Assembly: GCA_037379345.1 (NCBI GenBank)
Contig: CM074518.1
Location: 1,426,001 to 1,490,000 of the forward strand
From: Perna viridis
Lineage: Eukaryota
Reading direction: 5' to 3'
DNA length: 64,000 bases
In this document: positions 9,001-60,000 of the stretch, in pieces
Layout of the letters: each line of letters opens with the position of its first letter
How positions within the stretch are numbered: position 1 is the stretch's first letter
Made by a program: the position numbers

Positions 9001-12000
9001 TGTGGGAGATTCTCCCTCACTGACTGTCATACGTGGGTGATTTTTCACATAAAAGCAAATTTTTCACGTAAAAAATCAATTGTTTAGTGTTTAACAAAAT
9101 ATGTAGTAATTTTTATTATAAATATCCCACAAAATTTATATTTCTATGTGGGAGATTTTCAGTTTTTCATTGATTTTGTGGGAGGATTAACAGGTATGAT
9201 GGTCTTCAATCAGAGCTAATTTTCTCAGAGAACAGAAATAATACATGCATTAATTCTAATGATTTATTTTGTACCTTATATCTCTATTATCATGTTTATC
9301 TCATGTAAGCCAATTATCTTTCATAAGTTTATTCTGGAATTGAAAAATGTTACAACAATTAACTTTTGTAATGACCTACTTCACACATGTCAACCACAAA
9401 TAGTAACAGAATCATTTTCTTTTTATCAATAATGAAATCAGAATGTATTTTGTAATCAATGAGTATACCATTGTTTACATAAGTAGTAGAAATCCAATAT
9501 TATTGTAGGGACTTAAGATGTACAAAACAAAACAATATATTCTGACATGTGACCATAAAATTTATTTTCTTGTTTATTGTTGATGTAAAATGTTTAAGGG
9601 TTACAACAGTTCTTGAACACATGTATAAAATTCAATGAGAAAAATAAGTCTATAAAAACAAAGTAACATCTAAAAACCACACTTGTAAGTATCATAAACA
9701 AAGAAAAGGACTTTTCTGACAACTTTATAATACTTCAACACTCATGACATTGAAAACATGGAAGATAAAAAGTTAACAAATATAGCATATCTTCTAAATT
9801 GCACATATCCATTAACTGTCAATGTATATAATCCTGTTCATCAGTTTTGTTCATATATAAATTGTTAACGAGAATCAACAAGTCAATTCTGTACACGGTG
9901 TATCAGACTGGTACTGAAGATGTTGTATGGGCCATATGAGACAATGTCTTAATATCGTACTGACTGGTAGAAGAATTACTTGATAGGACTTTTATCTTGT
10001 ATTGTGGACTAGAACTAGACCAAGTTTAGGAGTCCAGAATAGACAAGCAGTCCAAAAGTCTGCAACAGATATAGATTCCAGAAACCCAGAACAGACAAGA
10101 AGTCTAGGAGTCCAAAAACTCACAACAGACATGGAGTCCATGAGTTCAGAAGTCCATGAACCCAGAACAGACATAGAGTCAGAGAGACCAGGATCATAAA
10201 TTACAAGTAGTTGACTAAGCACACTAGAATCTACCAGTCTCTGTAAAATAAAATACCATTATTAGCTATATACCAAGTAGATAATAAACTGCCTGAAAGA
10301 TGTTTGTGTTCTGTGCACAAATCATGTATTTTCACCAGTGATCATATTTTAAGTTATTCATACAAATCATGTATTTTCACCAGTGATCATATTTTAAGTT
10401 ATTCGTACAAATCGTGTATTTTCACAGTGATCATATTTTCACTTTTTTCACAAAAAATAATAGTGATGTAGTCTTACTACAACGTTTATTGTGAATTGTC
10501 TGATTGAACCCACCTGATCCTAAAGGACCGGTTTTGTTGTGTATTACCCTATTCAACCCACCTGATCATAAAGGACTGTTTATTGTGATGTCCAATTAAA
10601 CCCAACTGATCATAAAGGACTGTTTTTTTGTTTATTACCCAATTCAACCCATCTGATCATAAAGGGCTGTTTTTTGTGTATTACCCAATTTAACCCACCT
10701 GATCATAAAGGACTGTTTTTTTTGTGTATTACCCAATTTAACCCACCTGATCACAAAGGACTGTTTTGGTCTGAATAATCATCATCAGCATCACTCTCTT
10801 TCCTCAACCCTGTTGACCCTGAAGTCTCCACAATCTGAAAAAAAGTTTACCAGTGTTTTATCTACTATTGACACCATTTAATTCCAAGTTAATATGGCTT
10901 AAATATTAGTTTAAACATTTAATTGAAACATTAAAGAACATTAGTGTGCACACTAACAATACCTCAAAAGTACACATGTACACTCTTTCAAAAAATCCAG
11001 ACCCTATTACAAGATAATAATTGGTCCCCTTTATAATATAAGACAGCTGGCTGGTTGGAAATATTGTACCAATATACAAAAATAAGGGAGACAGTTCTGC
11101 CGCAAAGAATTTCTGCCTAATTACCATTGTCAGCTGTCTTGGAAAACTTTACACTGCTGTCTTAACCAAAAGACTGAAAAAATACTCTGATATTTTCATG
11201 ATCTTAAAAGACAATCATGTGGTTTTAGGGTAATCAAGGCAACCAAGATTGTAGTGGAAATCAACAGAATGTAATCCAGTCACAAGACCAGCCATGGCAA
11301 ACAGACAAACACAACAAAGAACATAAATTAACCAAAATAATACAAAGTAAAGTAACAAAAGTAAATGAGCACTTCCGACCCCACTAAAAACAGAGCATGG
11401 ACCAGGTGCACCAGTAGGGTAAGTGTCCTGTTTTCTAGAAACGCTTACCGCAAAAAAATTATCCCGTGCAATTATTGACTTTGAAAATGCAAGGCCAAAT
11501 TATGTCTTACTGACCAGTGTAGCCTTTTGTGCTAACTGTAAGATACTGTAAATATATTAATTTTTGCTGTGTACATATTTTCACTACTACCGAGATGGAC
11601 AGAAAATCATGAAAAAAATGTATCAGCAGAATGGAGTTTTAAACATTATATAACGATAATTATATTTTAAAACCCCATTAAATTAAGCTACTGCGAAAAA
11701 TAACAAATTTACAGTAGTCAATGGGCATGCGTGGAGCATGCTCAATATACACTTCCACAAGGATAATTCTTATAATCTGTTCAAGCTCTACCTTGCGGAA
11801 TTATATTTTGAGCATGCTTATCAACTTCGCACAAAAGGGACTGTTTGGAAATCTTGACATGAGAGTGCAAAAACTGTTAACTACAGACTTTATAAAAAGA
11901 CTGTATGTTTTGAAGATTACTTTAAAACTCTAGATGAGAGTAAATCTTTACTACTATGTTGATTTAGAACAGTGAACCATAGATTACCCATAGAGACAGA

Positions 12001-57000: not shown

Positions 57001-60000
57001 AACTAAGATCATTTACATAGAAATATAAATAGCTTCTTATCATGTAATCAATCAATGTTCTATATATAGATCTTCTGCCTTTTAATTCAATAACCATCCT
57101 AGATGAACTAAGTGCAACACAGATTTTTGGTGTATGATGTAAAATCATAGATATCTAAAATGGATCATGTTCTCTTTGATGTGGAAATTACTAGAAGTTG
57201 TCTAATTGTATCACAATTGATGTACATGAGGAAGTGGCTTTCAATAATCAATTACATCCAACAGATAAAGGCTTGATAAAATTGGCACACTGAAATGCTA
57301 AAAAGAACAGAATATCTTTAATTAAGCCAAATTAAACATTCCTTTAACATATTTCTATAATAAAAGTCAAACAGATTTTAAAATAGATTCTTTTGAATTT
57401 AGTCTTTCTAATAATGTCACTGAATTCATAACCTGACTATTTAAAAACAGATATTCTGAAAGTTCTCTAGAGCACCATGTTTTCTGATAAGTTACTTGAT
57501 TGTTAATGAACTAGCTTACCAAATGTTATCGACATGTCACAGCAATAACTTTAGCATTGTATCCAAAAGTCAACGACATTTTTTCCCTCTTCAATCTATA
57601 CTGGATGAGCTCACAATGCTCTATACACAATTTAAATGACAGCAGAACTTTCAATTTTACATAGCAATAAAAAAATAACAAGAAATCTTAAAGCAATGGC
57701 CCACTAGTGAAACTCCAGCATTCAATTATGATATATGGAAAATAAACAAATTCCTTGGTAAACAGAAGTTGTTGTTGAATCCTACCATAAGGCATACCTA
57801 CAGGAAGATTGTGTTAATGAATCCTACCATAAGGCATACCTATAGGAAGAATGTGTTAAAATTTATAGCTGCTGTGATGAGTTGTTGCTGAGAAAATTGT
57901 GACGGAAAAAGTGGTAACAGAGGGAAACATAGATAAGGGTAAAACAGTATACCCCCTGCTTCTTCGGTGTGAGGATTTAACAAGTCAGGTCAAAATGTTC
58001 TATTGTTAAGCTTTATTGAATAGAATACCCAAAGACAAGGCATGAGCAGTTCATAAAAAATTCTATGAAACTTCACTAACAGTTTAAAGGTTACTTTGGT
58101 TAGTTTGATGTTTTTTTCCTGTGTGTTAGAGGGGGATTTTTCCTGTGTTAGAAGGGGGTTTTTCCTGTGTGTTAGAGGGGGATTTTTCCTGCATGTTAGA
58201 GGGTTTTTTTTCCTGTGTAAGTTGGGGATTATTTTTGTGTGTTAGAGGGGGATTTTTCCTGCGTAAGTTGGGGATAATTTTTGTGTGTTAGAGGGGGATT
58301 TTTCCTGCTTAAGTTGGGGATAATTTTTGTGTGTTAGAGGGGGATTTTTCCTGCTTAAGTTGGGGATAATTTTTGTGTGTTAGAGGGGGATTTTTCCTGC
58401 TTAAGTTGGGGATTATTTTTGTGTGTTAGTGGGGGATTTTTCCAGATATCTCACTATGTACTATGGTTGTTTGTGAAGGCTTAACCTGTGCACTGAATTA
58501 TAACTACAATATCTCTCACAGTCTTCCTTTAAATCTCTAAATATTACCTGACTAAGAGAAAGTAAATTTCTGGTCTTGTTGACACTTCCTTGAACAGTGT
58601 AATAAATTCCTCAGAAGTGATTCGACCCTTTATAGCAATGTTTTGGTCCTTACGTTTCAGCTCAATCTCCTGTAAGTAGACAACATATCTCAGATTTACT
58701 ATAGACAATACTTCATAATTATGGTCTTTAGTAGATGTGAGATTTTATGGATCAAAGATACAGGTAAAGGCCATACATGTAGCTGTAGGCTGAGGTCCAA
58801 AGTGATTTCTTAGGAAAAAAATCTAATATATACTAAAGACTGTCATTTTTTCATTATAAAACAATTCAGAAAGAAAGCAAAACTATTTCAATATGGTTTT
58901 CATAAAACGTAATGATGTAATGCGAAAAGGCATTTGAATGTGAATTTGAAAGGTAACCAATATGATTTTTAATTAAACAATATCAAGAGTTACAAAATGT
59001 TATGTGTCAGCATTTCATCCAATGAAAACTTCAAAATAAAATCACTAATGATTAAAATCAAAAAGTTTTACTAGTGTTGACTGAAGCTTTAAATCTACTA
59101 ATGCTGAAAAAAAATTAAATCAAATATTTTTACAGCAGACAATACTGCAACTACTGCAAAATTTAATGCAAATAAATGGCTGTAGCTCAAAAGAAGGGTA
59201 TTAATCATGAAATCTGTATTTACATAAATAAATCCCTTAAAGAATTCGAAACATTTGTAAGCAAATTTTCAAAATTGTGTTTTTTTGGGTTTCTTTTGCA
59301 ATTTACCTCAATTTTAGAAATCAAAAGTGACTATTTTCCAAGTTCTGACCATGCTTACGTCATTTAATTATCATAAACACAAACATCTTTACTTGATATT
59401 GCAACTTGTCAAAACCAGAATTTCCAAAAAGACAAATGATTATGTAAATGATCCTGTACTTCAAAATAATCAACACTCTACCTATTACCCTGGAGAATGT
59501 CTGTACAAACAGATCAAAATATGACCAATTTTGGAATGCTTTTGACAGGAAGTTGTATGTCTGTCTGTTTTTAGATATCAGACACAACATACCTTAGACC
59601 ACAGTTCTATTTAATGACTACCAAACTAACCAACACAGATAAAGACACAAGTATGCCGGTTTCTGTCTACTAAAGTTAAAATCATGACATTATGGCATTC
59701 TAACAATGATTTGCAAAAATGAAATAGATAATAAAACTAGATACAATAAACCAAGAGAGATCTCAATCTCCTTTATTTTATTAAAGTTCAATAAAAAGGC
59801 AAAAAAATAATGAAATTTTATCCTATATTCTCAATAAACATTGACTGGCATGGGGACAAAAAATATTTTATGATTATTAACAGTACTAAACTTCTAAATC
59901 AATCATTGATAAGAATGTGTTGTGGTTGTCTGAGGAACAGCATCATGTCCATTGTTGTAAGTTCATATCTCTCTAACTCAACATTTCCTGCTCAGGTGAT

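What the first reader, a model, noticed from the sequence alone, without database searches (positions are those of the whole stretch)
10507..58669. Gene-wide pattern: minisatellites repeatedly arise at or next to exon-intron boundaries
Seen: three unrelated arrays incorporate real splice sites of this gene (10507-10768, 33460-34510, 35111-35224), each expanding into the intron and leaving the exon intact. Others stop very close to a boundary: the 38-bp array ends ~13 nt from donor 23537, the 22-bp array ~45 nt from donor 38299, the 55-bp array ~40 nt from acceptor 17714, and the 45-bp array ~105 nt from donor 58548. Inference: a splice-site-linked repeat-generating process (for example co-transcriptional R-loops or RNA-templated repair), or simply a high genome-wide duplication rate filtered by selection. 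Tandem duplication of splice sites is a proposed route to intron gain and exonisation, and this locus may show it in progress.
Basis: partly seen in the sequence, partly recalled or inferred. Interest (0 to 1): 0.72.

Follow-up and report, generated by a model that had tools for sequence, protein, structure and literature searches.

The report
Minisatellites at mussel gene splice sites
A mussel-like phospholipase-C-like gene is riddled with unrelated minisatellites, two of which really have copied a splice site many times, but their closeness to exon borders is about what chance placement of so many arrays would give.

Summary
The window holds the 3' four-fifths of a bivalve 'inactive phospholipase C-like 2' (PRIP/PLCL2-like) gene on the minus strand: 21 coding exons, 10751-58669. 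I take it for a mollusc, not human, and it has no N.

Tandem Repeats Finder gives 41 separate arrays covering 20.8% of the window.

- A 44-nt unit copies the 3' splice site plus the first 19 nt of exon E6, in 21 full and 2 degenerate upstream copies.
- A 44-nt unit copies the last 32 nt of exon E5 plus its GTAAGT donor, giving one extra intact donor.

The third array (10503-10768) straddles the stop codon and 3'UTR, not a splice site.

Junction-spanning arrays number 2, against 1.3-2.2 expected under four placement nulls (P 0.39-0.67). Proximity within 50-200 nt is at most nominally raised under pooled nulls (P 0.004-0.05, uncorrected) and not under a within-intron null.

Best reading: frequent local tandem duplication everywhere, tolerated at junctions because one copy stays contiguous with the exon. 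No intron gain is in progress.

The parts
10751..58669 (-). PRIP/PLCL2-like gene, the 21 coding exons present in the window (homologue residues ~252-1063; earlier exons lie beyond 64000). Exons, written high-low on the minus strand: 58669-58548, 51635-51569, 40886-40793, 38416-38299, 35278-35193, 33478-33358, 29542-29374, 28458-28360, 28085-27983, 25219-25040, 24169-23991, 23675-23537, 21753-21607, 20345-20248, 17714-17613, 17067-16882, 15925-15857, 15100-15047, 14372-14280, 13261-13166, 10834-10751.
   Evidence: Pfam PI-PLC-X, PI-PLC-Y and C2 on single-exon ORFs. Bivalve PLCL2 homologues. tblastn exon map. AG/GT and phase check.
33460..34515 (-). 44-nt minisatellite. Its unit is the 3' splice site of exon E6 (branch-point-like CTTAC, pyrimidine tract, AG) plus the first 19 nt of E6. 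It has 21 full upstream copies plus 2 degenerate older copies, and the last copy is the real one.
   Evidence: TRF 33460-34453, 22.6 copies, 90% matches. Phased layout. 23 hits of the 19-mer at <=4 mismatches, all within this stretch. 19 of 21 copies keep AG, and 9 of 21 are identical to the real site over -20..+3.
33358..33478 (-). Exon E6 (encodes ...DCWDGP..., PI-PLC-X core). Its first 19 nt are the exon-derived part of the array unit.
35111..35224 (-). 44-nt array, 2.6 copies. Its unit is the last 32 nt of exon E5 plus the GTAAGT donor plus 6 more intron nt. There is one extra intact donor 44 nt downstream (decoy last exon base 35149).
   Evidence: TRF. Layout. Donor 9-mer identical in copy 2; read-through meets an in-frame stop after 6 codons.
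35193..35278 (-). Exon E5 (PI-PLC-X); the real donor GT is at 35192-35191.
35023..35113 (-). 40-nt array, 2.3 copies, abutting the third (partial) copy of the donor array.
10503..10768 (-). 48-nt array, 5.7 copies. It starts 18 nt inside the end of the CDS (last five codons plus the TGA) and runs into the 3'UTR. It is not a splice junction.
22064..23524 (-). 38-nt array of about 38 copies. It fills 82% of its 1783-nt intron and starts 12 nt after the last base of exon E12 (23537).
38013..38250 (-). 24-nt array, 48 nt from the donor of E4 (38299). It has the same unit (rotated) as 37567-37787.
17741..17904 (-). 55-nt array, 3 copies, 26 nt upstream of the acceptor of E15 (17714).
58113..58443 (-). 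46-nt array, 104 nt downstream of the donor of E1 (58548).
14898..15015 (-). 45-nt array, 31 nt from the donor of E18 (15047).

Best explanation
This is a minisatellite-saturated bivalve gene. Short segments of local sequence (22-173 nt) are tandemly duplicated and then amplified all along the locus, whatever lies there.

Where a founding duplication fell across an exon border it survived. A tandem duplication that spans an acceptor leaves the last copy joined to the rest of the exon. One that spans a donor, or the stop codon, leaves the first copy joined. So the normal mRNA can still be made, and the surplus copies lie in the intron or 3'UTR. Duplications wholly inside coding exons are removed by selection.

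The apparent 'attraction' of arrays to splice sites is what one expects from about 30 arrays covering 22% of 20 mostly short introns with 41 junctions.

Shown: the arrays, the exon model, the exon-derived units, the counts and the nulls. Inferred: the mechanism of duplication (replication slippage or unequal exchange), that decoy sites are mostly ignored or their products removed by nonsense-mediated decay, and that selection removes exon-internal arrays.
For: DENSITY.
- 41 arrays cover 20.8% of the window.
- Density is similar inside the 20 introns (22.5%), downstream of the stop (18.2%) and in the upstream partial intron (19.1%). Only 2.9% of CDS bases lie in arrays.

LOCAL ORIGIN.
- No array has a dispersed copy of its unit elsewhere in the window. 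Only 5 dispersed pairs were found, 0 of them in arrays.
- Only 3 of the 41 arrays contain sequence of a coding-exon end, and those three overlap that end in place.
- The three boundary arrays carry conserved coding sequence, so they arose in place.

JUNCTION OVERLAP, observed 2 of 30 arrays.
- Pooled introns: expected 1.34 (P=0.39).
- Seed length: expected 1.30 (P=0.38).
- Own intron: expected 2.16 (P=0.67).
- Arrays collapsed to one unit: expected 1.62 (P=0.49).
- 24 clusters: expected 1.42 (P=0.41).

PROXIMITY under the own-intron null.
- Within 15 nt: 3 vs 2.8.
- Within 30 nt: 4 vs 3.4.
- Within 50 nt: 6 vs 4.2 (P=0.20).
- Within 110 nt: 8 vs 6.5 (P=0.28).
- Within 200 nt: 13 vs 9.6 (P=0.055).
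- Coverage near junctions equals this null.

GROWTH OF THE ACCEPTOR ARRAY. Unit identity peaks at lags of 5-7 and 12-13 units, which suggests multi-unit duplication.
Against: PROXIMITY EXCESS UNDER POOLED NULLS. When arrays may fall in any intron, arrays close to junctions are nominally in excess.
- within 50 nt 6 vs 2.7 (P=0.049); within 110 nt 8 vs 4.2 (P=0.048); within 200 nt 13 vs 6.3 (P=0.004).
-, arrays collapsed to one unit: 7 vs 3.2 (P=0.034); 10 vs 5.1 (P=0.020); 14 vs 7.7 (P=0.009).
-, after merging neighbouring arrays into 24 clusters: P=0.048, 0.12 and 0.032.
These values are uncorrected for six thresholds. They weaken with stricter TRF scores and vanish under the own-intron null. 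They do leave room for a mild exon-proximal excess.

LIMITS OF THE DATA.
- One gene gives little power.
- Nine decoy acceptors identical to the real site over -20..+3 ought to compete in splicing. Whether that is harmless is not shown.
- Whether the non-boundary arrays arose in place or arrived on mobile elements is untested genome-wide.
Confidence: 0.75

Rival explanations
1. A splice-site-linked repeat-generating process (co-transcriptional R-loops, RNA-templated repair or the like) seeds minisatellites preferentially at or next to exon-intron boundaries.
For: Nominal excess of arrays within 50-200 nt of junctions under pooled-intron nulls (P 0.004-0.05, uncorrected). Two arrays contain real splice sites.
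Against: - Overlap equals expectation under all four placement schemes.
- There is no excess under the own-intron null, and coverage near junctions equals that null.
- Array density is similar downstream of the stop codon.
- RNA-sense GC skew is positive in 15 and negative in 16 of 31 arrays. That R-loops favour G-rich RNA is recalled knowledge.
- Junction units are contiguous intron+exon sequence with the junction in the interior of the unit, not spliced sequence.
- The third 'junction' array is at the stop codon.
Confidence: 0.08
2. Most of the arrays were not born in place. They were brought in by mobile elements that carry internal tandem repeats, as described for oyster Helentron-derived elements and clam MITEs, and their positions reflect insertion plus selection.
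For: - Short satDNA-like arrays carried by non-autonomous Helentrons are dispersed in the Crassostrea gigas genome, including non-coding parts of genes, and double arrays with abrupt junctions are described (PMC7492417, passages read).
- The window has an abrupt double array at 43996-44871 / 44871-45769 and transposon remnants.
Against: - No array unit recurs elsewhere in the 64 kb.
- The three boundary arrays contain conserved coding sequence and so arose in place.
- No element termini were looked for.
- Genome-wide copy number could not be tested, because no eukaryotic genome collection was available.
Confidence: 0.2
3. The junction arrays are selected regulators. The ladder of decoy 3' splice sites before E6 (and the decoy donor after E5) diverts a tunable share of transcripts into premature-stop isoforms, setting the gene's output.
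For: 19 of 21 upstream copies keep AG, and 9 of 21 are identical to the real site over -20..+3. Every decoy gives a premature stop.
Against: No expression data. Copies differ by ordinary substitutions, 2 of 21 have lost AG, and conservation in other species is unknown. The arrays look like the 38 others that carry no splice site.
Confidence: 0.07
4. Assembly artefact: the arrays are mis-assembled or collapsed/expanded repeats.
For: Long tandem arrays are error-prone in assemblies (general knowledge).
Against: Copies carry distinct substitutions in a structured, higher-order pattern. All 21 exons are intact, with consistent phases across the arrays.
Confidence: 0.02

Closest known systems
Intron gain by tandem duplication of an exonic AG|GT proto-splice site (Lehmann et al. 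2010, PMC2891723, passages read; Hellsten et al. 2011, PMC3265369, abstract read; potato RdRp case PMC4974935, listing and start of abstract only)
   Same: A tandem genomic duplication copies splice signals. One copy keeps the mRNA intact. Nonsense-mediated decay is invoked to clear mis-spliced forms (PMC2891723 passage; PMC2809761, start of abstract only).
   Different: In that model the duplicated segment is exonic and the sequence between the two copies becomes a NEW intron. Here the segment straddles an existing junction, the copies simply lengthen an existing intron, no new intron or exon is created, and one site is amplified more than 20-fold.
Introns and alternative splice sites arising from tandem arrays in human genes (Zhuo et al. 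2007, PNAS). Recalled; only its title phrase was seen, held by 14 papers, and the paper itself was not read
   Same: Minisatellite units that carry splice signals sit inside genes.
   Different: There the repeats are reported to supply splice sites that are used. Here use of the decoys is untested and every decoy would give a premature stop.
Dispersed short satDNA-like arrays in bivalve genomes (C. gigas: PMC7492417, passages read; PMC8268682, listing and start of abstract)
   Same: A bivalve genome replete with short tandem arrays scattered through gene-rich sequence, including introns. Abrupt double arrays occur.
   Different: Those arrays belong to multi-copy families carried by Helentron-type elements. 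The arrays here have units unique within the window, and three are demonstrably made from the gene's own exon ends.
Intronic minisatellites and tandem repeats associated with splicing (CeRep25B in C. elegans, PMC4039745, passages read; human spl-TR catalogue, PMC10078293, start of abstract only)
   Same: Tandem repeats in introns near regulated splice sites.
   Different: Those are statistical associations of particular repeat families or lengths with splicing outcome. Here there is no enrichment and no splicing data.

Membership tests
Phosphoinositide phospholipase C-like protein (PRIP/PLCL2-like), the host gene | PI-PLC X and Y halves of the catalytic barrel followed by a C2 domain | tested here: met
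   Pfam on single-exon ORFs. PI-PLC-X matched on 3 ORFs (E 4.5e-18, 4.4e-09, and 1.8e-04; the last is below the curated cut-off). PI-PLC-Y matched on 2 (1.1e-21, 7.9e-11). C2 matched on 1 (1.5e-07). The top hits are named 'inactive phospholipase C-like protein 2'.
Phosphoinositide phospholipase C-like protein (PRIP/PLCL2-like), the host gene | N-terminal PH domain and EF-hands; loss of catalytic residues ('inactive') | not tested
   Homologue residues before ~252 lie outside the window. The E1 ORF gave no Pfam hit. Catalytic residues were not examined.
Minisatellite (head-to-tail array, unit of tens of nt) | Two or more tandem copies of a unit of roughly 10-200 nt | tested here: met
   41 arrays with periods of 22-173 nt and 1.9 to ~38 copies.
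Tandem duplication spanning a splice junction | The unit contains contiguous intron and exon sequence, with the splice signal inside it, and one copy continues into the exon | tested here: met
   Met for 33460-34515 (acceptor of E6) and 35111-35224 (donor of E5). NOT met for 10503-10768, which spans the stop codon.
[quoted passage not shown] | A new intron bounded by the duplicated AG|GT inside a formerly continuous exon | tested here: not met
   The duplications straddle existing junctions. The exon series aligns continuously to homologues with no extra intron at these sites.
[quoted passage not shown] | The intron is absent at that position in orthologues | not testable with these tools
   No eukaryotic genomic sequence of relatives was available.
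Mobile-element-borne satDNA-like arrays (Helentron/HINE, repeat-carrying MITEs) | The same unit and flanks are present at many loci; element termini are present | tested here: inconclusive
   Within the window, 0 of 41 arrays have a dispersed copy. The genome-wide test was impossible. Termini were not searched.
   Overlap 2 vs 1.3-2.2 expected. Proximity is nominally raised only under pooled nulls (P 0.004-0.05) and not under the own-intron null. Coverage near junctions equals the null. This is one gene only.
   Skew is positive in 15 and negative in 16 of 31 arrays. Units are unspliced genomic sequence.

The most novel reading that the evidence does not exclude
In this bivalve lineage, minisatellite births are mildly but really concentrated in the 30-200 nt flanking exons, as hinted by the pooled-null excesses (P 0.004-0.05). 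That would point to an exon-proximal mutational bias, from chromatin, transcription-coupled repair or replication-transcription conflict. Junction-spanning arrays such as the 21-copy decoy 3' splice-site ladder before E6 would then be a recurrent source of splice-site competition that the spliceosome and nonsense-mediated decay must absorb, and perhaps of tunable gene output.
Probability: 0.12. Interest if true: 0.65.

Novelty: new member of a known kind. Interest (0 to 1): 0.3.

Why it matters
The general claim of a splice-site-linked repeat generator is not borne out in this window, so the locus is not evidence for a new mutational process or for intron gain in progress.

What remains useful is a clean natural example: a complete 3' splice site amplified more than 20 times directly upstream of the real one. 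Nine copies are identical to the real site over the usual 23-nt scoring window. There is also a duplicated donor one exon earlier.

This is a ready-made test of how splice-site choice copes with many identical decoys, whether through exon definition, position or decay of mis-spliced RNA. It also shows how much minisatellite load a conserved gene tolerates.

It warns annotators of bivalve genomes that arrays can contain true exon ends.

Tried and rejected
I dropped typed letters and checked the boundaries by coordinates only.
- Rfam at gathering thresholds found 0 matches in the window, so no RNA gene or known structured element explains the arrays.
- Self-BLAST for dispersed copies of array units found none.
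- Junction +/-40 nt was searched against all 41 arrays. It returned the three overlapping arrays, two hits (E12, E15) that arise because the intronic 40 nt of the query reaches into the neighbouring array, and one 14-nt match that I take for chance. No further array is built from splice-site sequence.
- The R-loop signature (RNA-sense G-richness) is absent.
- My first reading, 'arrays are depleted next to junctions by selection', was rejected. The same low coverage is produced by random placement inside bounded introns.
- A 16-nt exact match of the CDS end at 902-887 has no longer similarity around it. I treat it as probable chance.
- Literature searches for minisatellite + Mytilus + intron (4 papers hold the terms, the 3 listed not relevant) and for mussel genome + tandem repeats + introns listed no study of array-junction proximity in bivalves.
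- The M. coruscus genome paper counts only 1-6-nt repeats in its text. Its Supplementary Table S1 on repeats could not be seen because supplements are closed.

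
Full report
WHAT THE WINDOW IS.
- The window is 64,000 nt with no N and 29-40% G+C per 2 kb.
- I submitted ten stop-to-stop ORF translations singly to Pfam. Six matched phospholipase C parts: PI-PLC-X on three, PI-PLC-Y on two, C2 on one. One matched a DDE_3 transposase. Three matched nothing.
- One exon ORF (25038-25343, minus) was searched against longer proteins. 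It found 78 proteins at E<=0.001 among 97 candidates. The best were bivalve and other molluscan proteins named 'inactive phospholipase C-like protein 2' or 'phosphoinositide phospholipase C'.
- tblastn of six of these 78 (P0001, P0003, P0004, P0006, P0007, P0014) against the window put all the matching pieces that form the exon series on the minus strand, in order. Mytilus edulis P0003 was closest, at 60-100% identity per piece over its residues 252-1063.
- I therefore take the window for a mussel-like bivalve, not human.
I built, printed and searched no joined CDS or protein.

EXON MODEL.
- From the sequence around each match I set boundaries by hand and checked them by coordinates.
- The model has 21 coding exons from 58669 to 10751. 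21 of 21 acceptors are AG and 20 of 20 donors are GT. Intron phases agree across every junction and no exon has an internal stop.
- The last exon ends ...QNSPL followed by TGA (10753-10751). P0003 ends with the same five residues at its C-terminus, residue 1063 of 1063.
- There are 20 complete introns of 274-10,682 nt, with a median of 1,487.5 and a total of 45,513 nt. There are 2,406 nt of CDS and 41 splice junctions.

THE ARRAYS.
- TRF gives 75 rows, which merge into 41 arrays totalling 13,330 nt, or 20.8% of the window. Periods run from 22 to 173 nt.
- 31 arrays touch the gene span and 30 lie in or at the 20 complete introns. 15 of the 20 introns hold at least one.
- Coverage is 22.5% of intronic bases, 18.2% of bases 1-10750 (downstream of the stop), 19.1% of 58670-64000, and 2.9% of CDS bases.
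- A self-comparison found only five dispersed repeat pairs, none of them in an array. The neighbouring arrays 37567-37787 and 38013-38250 share a rotated unit; the filter excluded pairs less than 1,500 nt apart.

THE ACCEPTOR ARRAY.
- Printed in 44-nt register on the minus strand, 33503-33460 is the real 3' end of the intron (25 nt ending in AG) plus the first 19 nt of exon E6. It then runs on into the rest of E6.
- Upstream lie 21 further full units of the same composition, and two older, degenerate copies of the exon head at about 34446 and 34506.
- The 19-mer exon head has 23 hits at <=4 mismatches in the whole window, all on the minus strand inside this stretch. One unit exceeds four mismatches.
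- Of the 21 full upstream copies, 19 keep AG. Over -20..+3, 9 are identical to the real site, 10 differ at one position and 2 differ at two.
- Each unit also carries a CTTAC about 22 nt before its AG. From recalled consensus, that looks like a branch point.
- Use of any upstream AG would add 44k nt. For the 7 of 21 copies where that is a multiple of three, an in-frame stop comes after 2-38 codons, before the real exon is reached. For the other 14 the frame is shifted, and the first stop comes after 2-65 codons.
- Unit identity peaks at lags of 5-7 and 12-13 units. Differences from the consensus number 69 of 968 positions. This suggests growth by multi-unit steps and some age.

THE DONOR ARRAY.
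- 35224-35181 is the last 32 nt of exon E5 plus 12 nt of intron, beginning with GTAAGT.
- 35180-35137 repeats it with three mismatches and an intact donor: the 9-mer over -3..+6 is identical.
- A third, partial copy follows and abuts a different 40-nt array.
- Reading through the real donor meets a stop after six codons.

THE 'THIRD SPLICE-SITE ARRAY'.
- 10503-10768 starts 18 nt before the end of the CDS and includes the stop codon. Its further copies lie in the 3'UTR.
- The donor-like CAG|GT in the unit follows the stop. The array marks the end of the coding region, not an exon-intron boundary.

IS PROXIMITY MORE THAN CHANCE? Observed counts among the 30 arrays:
- 2 overlap a junction.
- 3 lie within 15 nt, 4 within 30, 6 within 50, 8 within 110 and 13 within 200.

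Null A places arrays anywhere in the pooled introns and allows up to one unit of overlap.
- Expected 1.34, 1.75, 2.15, 2.69, 4.22 and 6.33.
- P = 0.39, 0.26, 0.16, 0.049, 0.048 and 0.004.

Null B places each array within its own intron, without overlap between arrays.
- Expected 2.16, 2.80, 3.39, 4.17, 6.45 and 9.57.
- P = 0.67, 0.56, 0.45, 0.20, 0.28 and 0.055.

Null C collapses every array to one unit and places seeds over the collapsed introns.
- Overlap is 2 vs 1.62 (P=0.49).
- Within 50/110/200 nt: 7 vs 3.2, 10 vs 5.1 and 14 vs 7.7 (P=0.034, 0.020, 0.009).
- With TRF score >=150 (23 arrays), P for the six counts runs 0.046-0.39. With score >=250 (17 arrays), it runs 0.046-0.67.

Null D is as C, but with neighbouring arrays merged into 24 clusters.
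- P = 0.41, 0.27, 0.18, 0.048, 0.12 and 0.032.

How I read these results:
- Null A is biased towards 'far', because an array lengthens its own intron. The 1,461-nt array makes up 82% of its intron.
- The nominal values in A, C and D are uncorrected for six thresholds.
- Base coverage rises from 5% at 1-12 nt to 20-28% beyond 100 nt. I first read that as depletion near junctions.
- The own-intron null gives the same figures, however: observed 6.3/9.1/12.1% within 25/50/100 nt against 7.1/8.2/9.9% expected. It is geometry, neither depletion nor enrichment.
A mild exon-proximal excess cannot be excluded from one gene.

MECHANISM CHECKS.
- RNA-sense GC skew of the 31 gene arrays is positive in 15 and negative in 16. 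Arrays are somewhat G+C-richer than other intronic sequence, 38.7% against 31.8%.
- Junction units are unspliced genomic sequence with the junction in their interior.
- Only the three overlapping arrays contain exon-boundary sequence.

WHAT IT MOST LIKELY IS. Local tandem duplication followed by amplification is frequent everywhere at this locus.
- A duplication across an acceptor keeps its last copy joined to the exon. One across a donor or a stop codon keeps its first copy joined.
- Such events are therefore tolerated, whereas exon-internal ones are not.
- That arrays 'expand into the intron and leave the exon intact' follows from this logic and needs no special process.
- That decoys are ignored, or their products degraded, is inference.

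COMPARISON WITH THE LITERATURE.
- Tandem duplication of an exonic AG|GT proto-splice site is an accepted route to new introns (PMC2891723, passages; PMC3265369, abstract). Here the defining feature, a new intron inside a former exon, is not met.
- Bivalve genomes are known to be replete with short dispersed tandem arrays, many on Helentron-type elements and some in genes (PMC7492417, passages). A reference in that paper's list names satellite sequences inside HSP70 introns of Mytilus galloprovincialis; I saw the title only.
- Intronic minisatellites have been linked statistically to splicing in C. elegans (PMC4039745, passages).
- My searches listed no study of array-junction proximity in bivalves.

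WHAT STAYED UNCHECKED.
- The genome-wide enrichment test, orthologous introns, copy number of units elsewhere in the genome and any transcript evidence.
- Supplementary repeat tables of mussel genome papers, which are closed.

VERDICT.
- Observation: partly confirmed. Two real splice-site arrays, one stop-codon array, and the near-boundary distances are right.
- The gene-wide 'pattern' is within random expectation.
- This is an ordinary consequence of extreme minisatellite density, with one striking by-product: the ladder of 21 decoy 3' splice sites.

Noticed in passing
window 30909-31220 (+): ORF fragment matching the DDE_3 transposase domain (E 1.5e-07). It looks like a Tc1/mariner-like remnant (that label is recalled) inside the E6-E7 intron.
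   Followed up: partly
window 1722-2434 (+): Two adjoining ORFs downstream of the gene look to me like a reverse-transcriptase remnant (recalled resemblance). Neither gave a Pfam hit at E<=0.01.
   Followed up: partly
window 2430-2653, 11227-11442, 41041-41190: A dispersed repeat family of about 150-225 nt in three copies, 82-95% identical. One copy lies about 155 nt upstream of the acceptor of exon E3 and one lies in the last intron. Probably a short mobile element.
   Followed up: no
window 43996-44871 and 44871-45769: Two unrelated long arrays (51-nt unit x17 copies, 28-nt unit x~32 copies) abut at a single base. This is an abrupt double array like those described for oyster Helentron-derived elements (PMC7492417).
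   Followed up: no
window 887-902 (-): A 16-nt exact match to the last codons of the CDS (the start of the stop-codon array unit), about 9.8 kb downstream of the gene. There is no longer similarity around it. Probably chance.
   Followed up: partly
window 33460-34453 (-): In the acceptor array, many of the 69 differences between copies fall in the exon-derived part. They include 10 transitions at the single consensus CpG and 14 T>C differences. My unchecked guess is that the T>C differences sit at the site where the real exon has CpG, which would fit CpG decay in a methylated gene body. Identity peaks every 5-7 units.
   Followed up: partly
window 21754-23536: One intron is 82% a single 38-nt array: 1,461 of 1,783 nt. 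Only 12 nt remain at the donor side and 310 nt at the acceptor side. Array growth, not insertion of other sequence, set this intron's length.
   Followed up: partly
all arrays within 10751-58669: Arrays are G+C-richer than the rest of the introns, 38.7% against 31.8%.
   Followed up: no
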